Shown: positions 5,979-29,260 of the stretch, piece after piece
Position numbering within the stretch: position 1 is the first letter of the stretch
Layout of the letters: each line of letters opens with the position of its first letter
Source of the DNA: Eledone cirrhosa
Lineage: Eukaryota
DNA length: 64,000 bases
Assembly: GCA_964016885.1 (NCBI GenBank)
Contig: OZ024747.1
Coordinates: forward strand, 11,966,001 to 12,030,000
Direction: 5' to 3'
The notes under the pieces: generated by a model
What the model was told of the DNA's origin: nothing
The model's database searches: none
What the model saw: only the letters and a program-made list of their open reading frames with translations
Program-made: the position numbers and the translations under genes

Positions 5979-5986
<8 letters not shown>

Positions 5987-6199
5987 ATAACCTTACGTTC
6001 TGCTTCAGTGTGTATATTTTTCCCGTTATTTTATTATATTTCAGTTTCGCTTTCAATTATAATAACCTTTGTTTTTAAATTCATATCTTACGTCTATATT
6101 ACATTTTCATTCTGATGAGCGATTTCAGACGTCTCTGTTGAGCGCGTCTGTCTTCGTGAAACCTTTGGTAAATGGAATAATTGTCTTATGTTGTTTATT

Positions 6200-6202
<3 letters not shown>
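5979..6202 (+). mobile_element. Short Penelope-like non-autonomous element carrying a hammerhead
   Basis: Unique AT-rich block between two (TA)n tracts; its 3' flank AATTGTCTTATGTTGTTTATTACA is shared with 23370-23405. Confidence 0.6.
6105..6177 (+). ncRNA. Type I hammerhead ribozyme (Penelope-like, short stem III)
   Basis: TTTCATT-CTGATGA(6112-6118)-stem II GCGA..CAGACG..CTC TGTT GAG..CGTCTG..TCGT-GAAA(6158-6161)-CC TTT GG-TA-AATGGAA. Stem I has 7 bp with one GU; predicted cleavage after GUA at 6170. Confidence 0.8.
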
Positions 6203-23250: not shown

Positions 23251-23253
<3 letters not shown>

Positions 23254-23350
23254 GTGCTTACACAACTGTTGTGTAACCACTTCTATCTAACTCGTCCCTT
23301 GGACTGAGTGCTCTACCACTACAGATATTACCTTCCAGTGTTCCACCACT
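23251..23350 (+). mobile_element. Short hairpin-headed element related to 1240-1300
   Basis: Hairpin TAGAAGTGCTTACACA/TGTGTAACCACTTCTA, then GGACTGAGTGCTCTACCACTACAGATATTACCT, which matches the reverse complement of about 1255-1290; (TA)n on both sides. Confidence 0.55.
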
Positions 23351-23406
23351 ATATATATATATATATATATTATTATTATTATGTAATAAACAACATAAGG
23401 CAATTA

Positions 23407-23466
23407 TTCCATTTACCAGTGGTTTCTTAAAAGCAAAAGGTTTTGCTTTCAATCCTCAGAATGAAA
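23407..23466 (-). ncRNA. Type I hammerhead ribozyme, same family as 6105-6177
   Basis: Minus strand reads TTTCATT-CTGAGGA-TTGAAAGCAAAA CC TTTTGCTTTTAA-GAAA-CC ACT GG-TA-AATGGAA. Stem I and the downstream flank match the 6.1-kb copy; stem II is different in sequence but fully paired. Confidence 0.8.
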
Positions 23467-23588
23467 AATCCTGGTTTGTTTATTGAATATGGATTGCCTT
23501 ATGTTGTTTATTACATAATAATAATAATTAAGCTCTGTTGCATACATAGAGCACTCTTTTTTCCTGGACTTTTCCGATGGAATTACTT

Positions 23589-23650
<62 letters not shown>

Positions 23651-23654
<4 letters not shown>

Positions 23655-23842
23655 ATATAGAAGTGGCTTCTACAGGACTAGAACTGTTTCATTCGGGAGA
23701 AATCATCAGGAAGCCCTGATGATTCTCCCGAATGAAACAGTTCTAGTCCTGTAGAAGCCATTTCTATATTAAATAGTTATACTCTATGTATTGAGTACCT
23801 TACTTACTGTGGTTACCCCCAAATGAACCCGGGATGAACTTG
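23651..23842 (+). mobile_element. Penelope-like mini-element with 5' inverted duplication
   Basis: Inverted arms 23651-23709 and 23716-23773 both contain hammerhead core sequence; GTATTGAGTAC at 23788-23798; a second family member lies at 63540-63718. Confidence 0.7.
23665..23715 (-). ncRNA. Type I hammerhead ribozyme inside an inverted repeat
   Basis: Minus strand reads GGCTTC-CTGATGA-TTTC TCCC GAAT-GAAA-CAG TTCTAGTC CTG-TA-GAAGCC. Stem I is a perfect 6 bp, stem III 4 bp, and stem II is weak (3 bp with a U-U closing pair). Confidence 0.75.
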
Positions 23843-29194: not shown

Positions 29195-29260
29195 TATTTT
29201 ATCTGATGAAAGTGCACCATAATTTGCCTTGGTGGCCCTTGAAATATGTATAATAAAATA
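29195..29260 (+). ncRNA. Type I hammerhead ribozyme with near-palindromic stem III
   Basis: TATTTTAT-CTGATGA(29203-29209)-AAGTGCACCA...TGGTGGCCCTT-GAAA(29241-29244)-TATGTA-TA-ATAAAATA. Stem I is 8 bp, stem II about 9 bp and imperfect, and stem III ATATGTAT is self-complementary with GU. Confidence 0.72.

What the first reader, a model, noticed from the sequence alone, without database searches (positions are those of the whole stretch)
23407..23466. Natural covariation: same hammerhead family, completely swapped stem II
This copy shares stem I, the core, the CC/GG stem III and about 30 nt of downstream flank with the 6105 copy. Its stem II (TTGAAAGCAAAA CC TTTTGCTTTTAA) is unrelated in sequence yet fully paired, and the variable core position 7 differs (CUGAGGA vs CUGAUGA). 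Changes confined to positions the ribozyme tolerates argue for selection on the fold in the parent elements. The 3' flank is also duplicated in inverted orientation (23369-23405 vs 23493-23527).
Basis: seen in the sequence. Interest (0 to 1): 0.7.

Follow-up and report, generated by a model that had tools for sequence, protein, structure and literature searches.

The report
Stepwise-evolved hammerhead stem in Penelope retrotransposon
This is a predicted self-cutting RNA motif at the end of a known kind of jumping gene; its middle stem was not swapped but changed step by step across thousands of copies, mostly keeping its pairing, which likely reflects selection on the RNA fold.

Summary
The motif is real: a type I hammerhead on the minus strand (23466-23407) in the terminal repeat of a Hydra-clade Penelope-like retrotransposon. 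The window copy is a 222-bp, 5'-truncated fold-back insertion in (TA)n, 223 of 224 bases identical to an intact full-length element. About 7,500 relatives exist. The 6105 copy belongs to a sister lineage with its own ORF (72-75% amino-acid identity). 'Completely swapped stem II' is wrong: intermediate subfamilies link both stems in register. Real compensatory changes exist (pairs 2, 6, 7, 10), but the 6105 lineage broke three pairs without compensation and pair 1 varies regardless of pairing. Support for selection is moderate (p 0.001-0.5 by test). Copies do not pile up at the cleavage site, so cleavage in vivo is not shown. A side finding: young elements carry an internal duplicate hammerhead; 32 of 32 ORF-anchored copies have a predicted cleavage-blocking change. 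PLE hammerheads rich in covariation are published, and this scan met this element class many times elsewhere in this genome. Ordinary kind; modest interest.

The parts
23369..23494 (-). Minus arm of the fold-back insertion: 5'-truncated 3' end of the Penelope-like element, ending in (TAA)n/(TA)n (short end)
   Evidence: 126 of 126 bases identical to the terminal repeat of full-length element L104
23460..23466 (-). Hammerhead stem I, 5' strand
   Evidence: 7 bp with 23413-23407
23453..23459 (-). Catalytic core CUGA-G-GA (position 7 = G)
   Evidence: position 7 is T 90, C 49, G 41, A 2 among 182 terminal copies
23427..23452 (-). Stem II, 26 nt, 12 complementary positions including one G.U; U-A at 10.1-11.1
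   Evidence: homologous in register to the 6105 stem
23415..23426 (-). GAA core and 3-bp stem III with near-palindromic 9-nt sequence (loop ACU)
   Evidence: self-duplex -8.2 vs hairpin +0.4 kcal/mol
23413..23414 (-). Predicted cleavage site, after A17 of a GUA triplet
   Evidence: position from hammerhead consensus (recalled); activity untested
23407..23413 (-). Hammerhead stem I, 3' strand
23493..23590 (+). Plus arm: inverted copy starting 9 nt past the cleavage site and carrying the ~65-nt extension (tail) that lies between the hammerhead and the ORF in full-length elements
   Evidence: 97 of 98 bases identical to L104; start mapped at +9; extension precedes the ORF
6105..6177 (+). Hammerhead of the sister lineage (39-nt stem II with UUU/UCU internal loop, loop III UUU)
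   Evidence: lineage has its own ORF
5985..6201 (+). Truncated 3' end of the sister-lineage element (approximate limits), between (TA)n and (CA)n/(TA)n
   Evidence: upstream homology to other copies

Best explanation
The motif is the type I hammerhead in the terminal repeat of a Hydra-clade Penelope-like retrotransposon, and its stem II is the same helix as in the 6105 copy, changed step by step with paired substitutions that likely reflect selection on the RNA fold in the active parent elements. Shown: the element (about 4.3 kb, 710-aa ORF, hammerhead at both ends) inserts into (TA)n and leaves 5'-truncated, often fold-back copies such as this one; two sister lineages descend from subfamilies with a shared stem II; the 23466 lineage replaced pairs 6, 7 and 10 by other pairs and turned pair 3 into G.U; the 6105 lineage converted pair 2 through U.G to C-G, opened pairs 5-7 and carries a longer distal helix. 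Inferred: only changes fixed in transposing master elements saw selection, while changes after insertion are neutral. Predicted: the weak, near-palindromic stem III makes the ribozyme work as a dimer of the two end copies, slowly or with help from the element's protein. Copies are made mostly from RNA that is intact across the cut site, so cleavage would be a side or later step (processing or circularising the transcript), not the step that defines the copied RNA's ends.
For: Identity to full-length element. Hydra motifs RWK, DKT, CxCx5C, CxxC, CxH in P0002; colinear by eye with Hydra-1_Obim. Bridging stems: 864 matches to a pattern holding the shared stem II; structure-blind MAFFT puts all 20 chosen copies in register; a tree built without stem II (96 copies) gives two ladders that meet at the bridging subfamilies. 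Covariation: 8 of 22 pairs with a change on both sides, score 0.207 vs 0.136 +/- 0.011 in shuffles (0 of 500) and at most 0.089 when slid; RNAalifold recovers all three helices, 4 of 17 pairs with double changes. On the 23466 path 3 of 3 changes in the 5' arm fall opposite the 4 changes in the 3' arm (p 0.033). Recurrent alternative pair states are paired in 9 of 14, rare cells in 11 of 59 (p 0.0015). Recurrent one-sided states are G.U 8 times, A.C once, stems I and II together (p 0.02), a sense-strand bias. Core-blind search: no core change shared within a subfamily of terminal copies in 100 of 7,565 rows read by eye. Internal duplicate: 1 lineage change keeps pairing, 5 break it, against 5 and 0 in the terminal copy of the same lineage (p 0.015, my tally; test).
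Against: Tree-based keep-versus-break test is not significant: shared changes 6 kept, 5 broken; private 18 kept, 25 broken (p 0.51; p 0.32 with stem II in the tree). The 6105 lineage broke three pairs uncompensated; adding it weakens the terminal-versus-internal contrast to p 0.05. From the two window copies alone the overlap is p 0.10. Pair 7 passed through an A.C subfamily (13 of 182 copies) and pair 1 is unpaired in 69 of 182. All double changes are transition pairs, which stay paired by themselves. The 20 rows were hand-picked and related, so its shuffle count is not a probability; the p 0.0015 test mixes units and ignores relatedness. The conserved G10.1-C11.1 pair is absent. Monomer folding gives stems I and III together only 2-4% of the time. 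No excess of copy starts at the cut site. No Rfam or Pfam match.
Confidence: 0.75

Rival explanations
1. Stem II was replaced wholesale (cassette swap or recombination) between two families that share the rest of the repeat.
For: The two window stems differ at 14 of 24 arm positions and by 13 nt in length. The two young lineages share two derived A-to-G changes just downstream of the cut site that older subfamilies of both lack, which could mean some exchange of 3' sequence.
Against: Intermediate subfamilies of 26, 27, 29, 30, 32 and 39 nt fill the path; the tree without stem II orders them in the same way.
Confidence: 0.04
2. Pairing is kept by DNA-level palindrome correction (template switching in the hairpin) rather than by selection on RNA.
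For: Fold-back template switching is common in this family; all double changes are transition pairs.
Against: Correction would give perfect Watson-Crick pairs, yet G.U states persist in whole subfamilies and outnumber A.C 8 to 1 on the sense strand; the internal duplicate decays uncorrected; the unpaired core is also conserved.
Confidence: 0.08
3. The fold is selected as a structural signal (binding site for the element's protein, promoter or start signal), and the ribozyme no longer cuts in this family.
For: No cleavage footprint in young or old subfamilies; no G10.1-C11.1 pair; poor monomer folding; in the anole element hammerhead mutants still transpose in vitro and no reads end at the cut site (PMC11167929, passages).
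Against: The catalytic core and A17 are kept in terminal copies across lineages about 25% apart in protein; the internal duplicate always carries a predicted cleavage-blocking change (32 of 32); the anole ribozyme does cut when the protein is present.
Confidence: 0.3
4. The G.U excess comes from A-to-I editing of the paired RNA before reverse transcription, not from selection.
For: Several lineage changes are A-to-G on the sense strand, two of them in parallel in both lineages, as are both first changes in the internal duplicate. Heavy editing in cephalopods is recalled, and the host is only inferred.
Against: The 23466 path also has G-to-A and C-to-T changes; in terminal copies A-U pairs 4, 5, 9 and 11 show 16 G.U against 9 A.C cells, no strong bias; terminal point mutants at A17 are more often T than G.
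Confidence: 0.08

Closest known systems
Hydra clade of C-terminal-endonuclease Penelope-like elements, e.g. Hydra-1_Obim (Craig et al. 2021, PMC8557442; abstract, passages, section 11 and parts of the supplement read)
   Same: RWK, DKT, CxCx5C, CxxC and CxH motifs; 710 vs 709 aa, colinear by eye; (TA)n targets; terminal type I hammerhead with short near-palindromic stem III and a variable or mismatched pair at the base of stem II (File S2).
   Different: Unit about 4.3 kb with a 1.9-kb microsatellite-rich 3' UTR (published members generally under 3 kb); stem II of 10-13 bp against about 3-8 bp in File S2; a second internal hammerhead copy; the hammerhead sequence differs from that of Hydra-1_Obim.
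Metazoan PLE hammerheads (Cervera and de la Pena 2014, PMC4209133; parts 1-2 of 4 of the text read)
   Same: [quoted passage not shown]
   Different: That paper reports a highly conserved G10.1-C11.1 pair, absent here; the stepwise subfamily path is not traced there in the parts read.
PAc Poseidon element of the green anole (Frangieh et al. 2024, PMC11167929; passages read)
   Same: Two fixed 3' ends (short end and tail) downstream of the hammerhead; uncleaved RNA as main template; no ends at the cut site.
   Different: Different PLE clade; there the ORF starts inside the hammerhead, here about 210 nt past the cut site; activity was assayed there, not here.

Membership tests
Type I hammerhead ribozyme | Core CUGANGA and GAAA with NUH triplet | tested here: met
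   (A17 in 179 of 182 terminal copies; most loci were picked with core-containing patterns); NUH rule recalled
Type I hammerhead ribozyme | Three helices, open at stem I | tested here: met
Type I hammerhead ribozyme | G10.1-C11.1 pair at the base of stem II | tested here: not met
   U-A here; 7 recurrent states, unpaired in 69 of 182. Published Hydra hammerheads also vary there
Type I hammerhead ribozyme | Match to an Rfam hammerhead model | tested here: not met
   (23380-23500, E up to 10); none among the 150 of 209 rows listed
Type I hammerhead ribozyme | Self-cleavage at the predicted site | not testable with these tools
   no assay; genomic footprint absent
Metazoan PLE hammerhead (dimer type) | Short, palindromic helix III that favours a dimer | tested here: met
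   self-duplex -8.2 vs hairpin +0.4 kcal/mol; weaker (-5.1) in the 6105 lineage; computed only
Penelope-like element | Single RT plus C-terminal GIY-YIG ORF between terminal repeats | tested here: met
   12 ORFs of 713-715 codons in 13 fetched regions; domains by motif and by-eye match to the published alignment; Pfam found nothing
Penelope-like element | 5' truncation, inverted 5' copy and a tail at one end | tested here: met
   tail is about 65 nt, longer than the published 30-40
Hydra clade | RWK, DKT, CxCx5C linker, CxxC and CxH motifs | tested here: met
Hydra clade | Insertion into (TA)n | tested here: met
Hydra clade | Length generally under 3 kb | tested here: not met
   4,278 bp between terminal hammerheads in L104; a descriptive trait, due to the long 3' UTR
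Hydra clade | Placement in an RT phylogeny with published members | not tested
   only by-eye comparison with the supplement

The most novel reading that the evidence does not exclude
Young elements carry a built-in cleavage-proof helper ribozyme: the internal duplicate keeps its catalytic core but lost its own cut site (GUG) at once, so it pairs through stem III with the terminal hammerhead and cuts it without being cut, an asymmetric natural dimer. A weaker version (about 0.4 likely): the duplicate had to be silenced, which would be indirect evidence that this family's hammerhead cuts in vivo. For: 32 of 32 ORF-anchored duplicates have G17 (18) or a broken first pair of stem I (14); A17G is one of only two hammerhead changes in the earliest copies; about 1 of 15 lineage changes hits the core (p 0.065). 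Against: two full-length elements share a core change in the duplicate, one branch regained A17 with a damaged stem I, older subfamilies lack the duplicate, and no cleavage footprint is seen.
Probability: 0.1. Interest if true: 0.65.

Novelty: new member of a known kind. Interest (0 to 1): 0.3.

Why it matters
The role of hammerheads in Penelope-like elements is still open (PMC8557442, PMC11167929). This family preserves a ladder of subfamilies that records each step of stem II evolution, including G.U and A.C intermediates, and a natural control in the same RNA (a duplicate that decays). That makes a compact test set for whether the ribozyme must cut, and for how compensatory changes arise. 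The kind itself is known, so the value is as material, not as a new system.

Tried and rejected
Rfam: no hammerhead match. Pfam: nothing for the ORF. RNA runs: no RNA holder listed, so no reads were laid. Naiad/Chlamys assignment rejected: endonuclease is C-terminal with Hydra motifs. The Neptune-like ORF beside a 6105-type copy in L043 is a separate element. A flank tree of all 173 copies was too noisy because many lack upstream sequence (52 twins and 3 copies with stem deletions dropped); I used the 96 with at least 60 homologous upstream bases. The keep-versus-break test on that tree was not significant. The internal/terminal classifier misfiled some internal copies and was redone. Mapping 5' ends of 225 arms showed none at the cut site but the loci were chosen for intact hammerheads; a direct paired search showed no excess: young about 10 arms at the site vs 9 at +1 (all 19 T/C rows and 27 of 81 G rows examined, G rows extrapolated; all 18 controls examined), old 12 of 30 vs 15 of 30 examined from 81 and 66 matches. 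A direct protein comparison with the sister ORF failed on stop codons; identity is from tblastn. Lunse et al. 2017 was not held. Searches found no paper on this family's stem II path or on an internal G17 copy; the library lacks most subscription papers.

Full report
Observation. The minus strand at 23466-23407 holds a type I hammerhead: 7-bp stem I, CUGAGGA, a 26-nt stem II, GAA, a 3-bp stem III with loop ACU and a GUA triplet. It shares stem I, core (except position 7), CC/GG and 30 of 31 downstream bases with the copy at 6105. The inverted duplicate is a perfect 36 nt, 23369-23404 against 23493-23528. A 26-mer from the 3' half occurs 5,076 times in the 3.0-Gb genome, its reversed control 0 times; a core-blind pattern gives 7,565. 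Rfam does not match it.

What it belongs to. Loci upstream of the motif hold a reverse transcriptase-endonuclease ORF. A protein search scored 150 matches, 13 with open frames of 700 codons or more; 13 fetched regions showed 12 ORFs of 713-715 codons, most with the motif at one or both ends. The 710-aa protein has the RWK, DKT, CxCx5C, CxxC and CxH motifs that define the Hydra clade (PMC8557442 section 11) and is colinear by eye with Hydra-1_Obim in that paper's supplement, which suggests a cephalopod host (inference only). Pfam found nothing. The window insertion is 126 of 126 and 97 of 98 bases identical to full-length element L104 on its two arms: a 5'-truncated 3' end plus an inverted copy bearing the tail, in (TA)n, the published PLE pattern. 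The 6105 type has its own ORF, 74.8% identical over 341 aa (L135) and 71.6% over 422 aa (L138): a sister lineage.

Stem II was not swapped. A pattern free in stem II finds 6,482 short and 477 long forms; 864 copies carry a bridging stem. Structure-blind alignment of 20 chosen copies puts the arms in register. A tree from flanks only (96 copies; stem II left out) gives two ladders that meet at the 29-, 30-, 32- and early 39-nt subfamilies. On the 23466 path pair 6 went G-C to A-U, pair 7 A-U through A.C to G-C, pair 10 G-C through G.U to A-U, pair 3 G-C to G.U. On the 6105 path pair 2 went through U.G to C-G and pairs 5-7 opened into a UUU/UCU loop, with a longer distal helix. Pair 1 (10.1-11.1) takes seven recurrent states and is unpaired in 69 of 182 terminal copies; published Hydra hammerheads also vary there.

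Is it selection? For: 8 of 22 pairs change on both sides, covariation 0.207 against 0.136 in shuffles and at most 0.089 slid (rows hand-picked and related); RNAalifold finds the three helices; 3 of 3 changes in one arm face changes in the other on the 23466 path, p 0.033; recurrent states paired 9 of 14 against 11 of 59 rare cells, p 0.0015 (units differ); G.U over A.C 8 to 1, p 0.02; no core change shared within a terminal subfamily in 100 rows read by eye. Against: keep-versus-break on the tree is not significant (p 0.51 and 0.32); three uncompensated breaks in the 6105 lineage; p 0.10 from the two window copies alone; all double changes are transition pairs. Verdict: real but moderate. [quoted passage not shown]

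A natural control. Young elements carry a second copy of the hammerhead about 300-500 bases after the ORF. It is present in 32 of 32 young ORF-anchored loci and absent at the 5 ORF ends of older subfamilies examined. The earliest copies differ from their own terminal copy, within the hammerhead, only by A17G and an A-U to G.U change, and also alter the last bases of the short end. Later branches break stem II pairs 8, 4 and 5 and the first pair of stem I without compensation. All 32 have G17 (18) or a C.A at that first pair (14); that these block cleavage is recalled, not from a call (search 80 found no source). My tally of 1 kept and 5 broken against 5 and 0 in the terminal copy gives p 0.015, or 0.05 with the 6105 lineage added. 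The core is mostly kept, but L110 and L111 share A6U.

How it likely works. Stem III is 3 bp and nearly palindromic: self-duplex -8.2 against +0.4 kcal/mol as a hairpin; the monomer forms stems I and III together in 2-4% of the ensemble. This fits the dimer mode described for PLE hammerheads. Copies end at two fixed points downstream of the cut site, so their template was intact or rejoined there. Copy starts are no commoner at the cut site than one base on: about 10 against 9 arms in the young subfamily (G rows extrapolated from 27 of 81) and 12 of 30 against 15 of 30 in older ones. This agrees with the anole element, where cleavage needs the protein and is not needed for insertion. Cleavage in this family is therefore predicted, not shown.

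Novelty. Hammerheads in Hydra-clade elements are published, and this scan noted the class in many other windows of this genome (AI notes, unchecked). Some of those notes report cleavage footprints in other families; I found none in this one. Seven literature searches gave no paper on this family's stem path or the internal G17 copy. Papers seen: PMC8557442 (abstract, passages, section 11, one supplement part and passages), PMC4209133 (parts 1-2 of 4; supplements not seen, and they may list similar motifs), PMC11167929 and PMC6765202 (passages). New member of a known kind; interest 0.3.

Noticed in passing
L104:5259-5330 and 31 other ORF-anchored loci: Internal duplicate of the terminal hammerhead in the 3' UTR of young elements, always with G17 or a broken first pair of stem I; absent from older subfamilies.
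   Followed up: yes
L329, L330 vs L326, L328: Position 7 is G in both internal and terminal copies of L329 and L330, and T in both in L326 and L328, suggesting conversion between the two copies while G17 is retained.
   Followed up: no
window 23413-23399 (-) and 6171-6185 (+); Both young lineages share two A-to-G changes just past the cut site that older subfamilies of both lack: parallel change, editing or exchange of 3' sequence.
   Followed up: partly
window 23643-23781: 59-nt-arm palindrome (95% complementary) with a hammerhead-like core at 23716 of another family, stem I 5' strand missing, followed by a tail-like stretch.
   Followed up: no
window 29195-29260 (+): Another type I hammerhead candidate with 8-bp stem I and different stems, between (TA)n tracts.
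   Followed up: no
window 23251-23347: Fold-back fragment of another repeat, similar to a stretch in L043 1070-1260; several such fragments cluster in these (TA)n tracts.
   Followed up: no
   Followed up: partly
L043:1780-3550: Broken Neptune-like PLE ORF beside a 6105-type fold-back insertion.
   Followed up: no
L329:5377-6440: Three tandem terminal repeats about 360-400 bp apart followed by a copy of an older subfamily.
   Followed up: no
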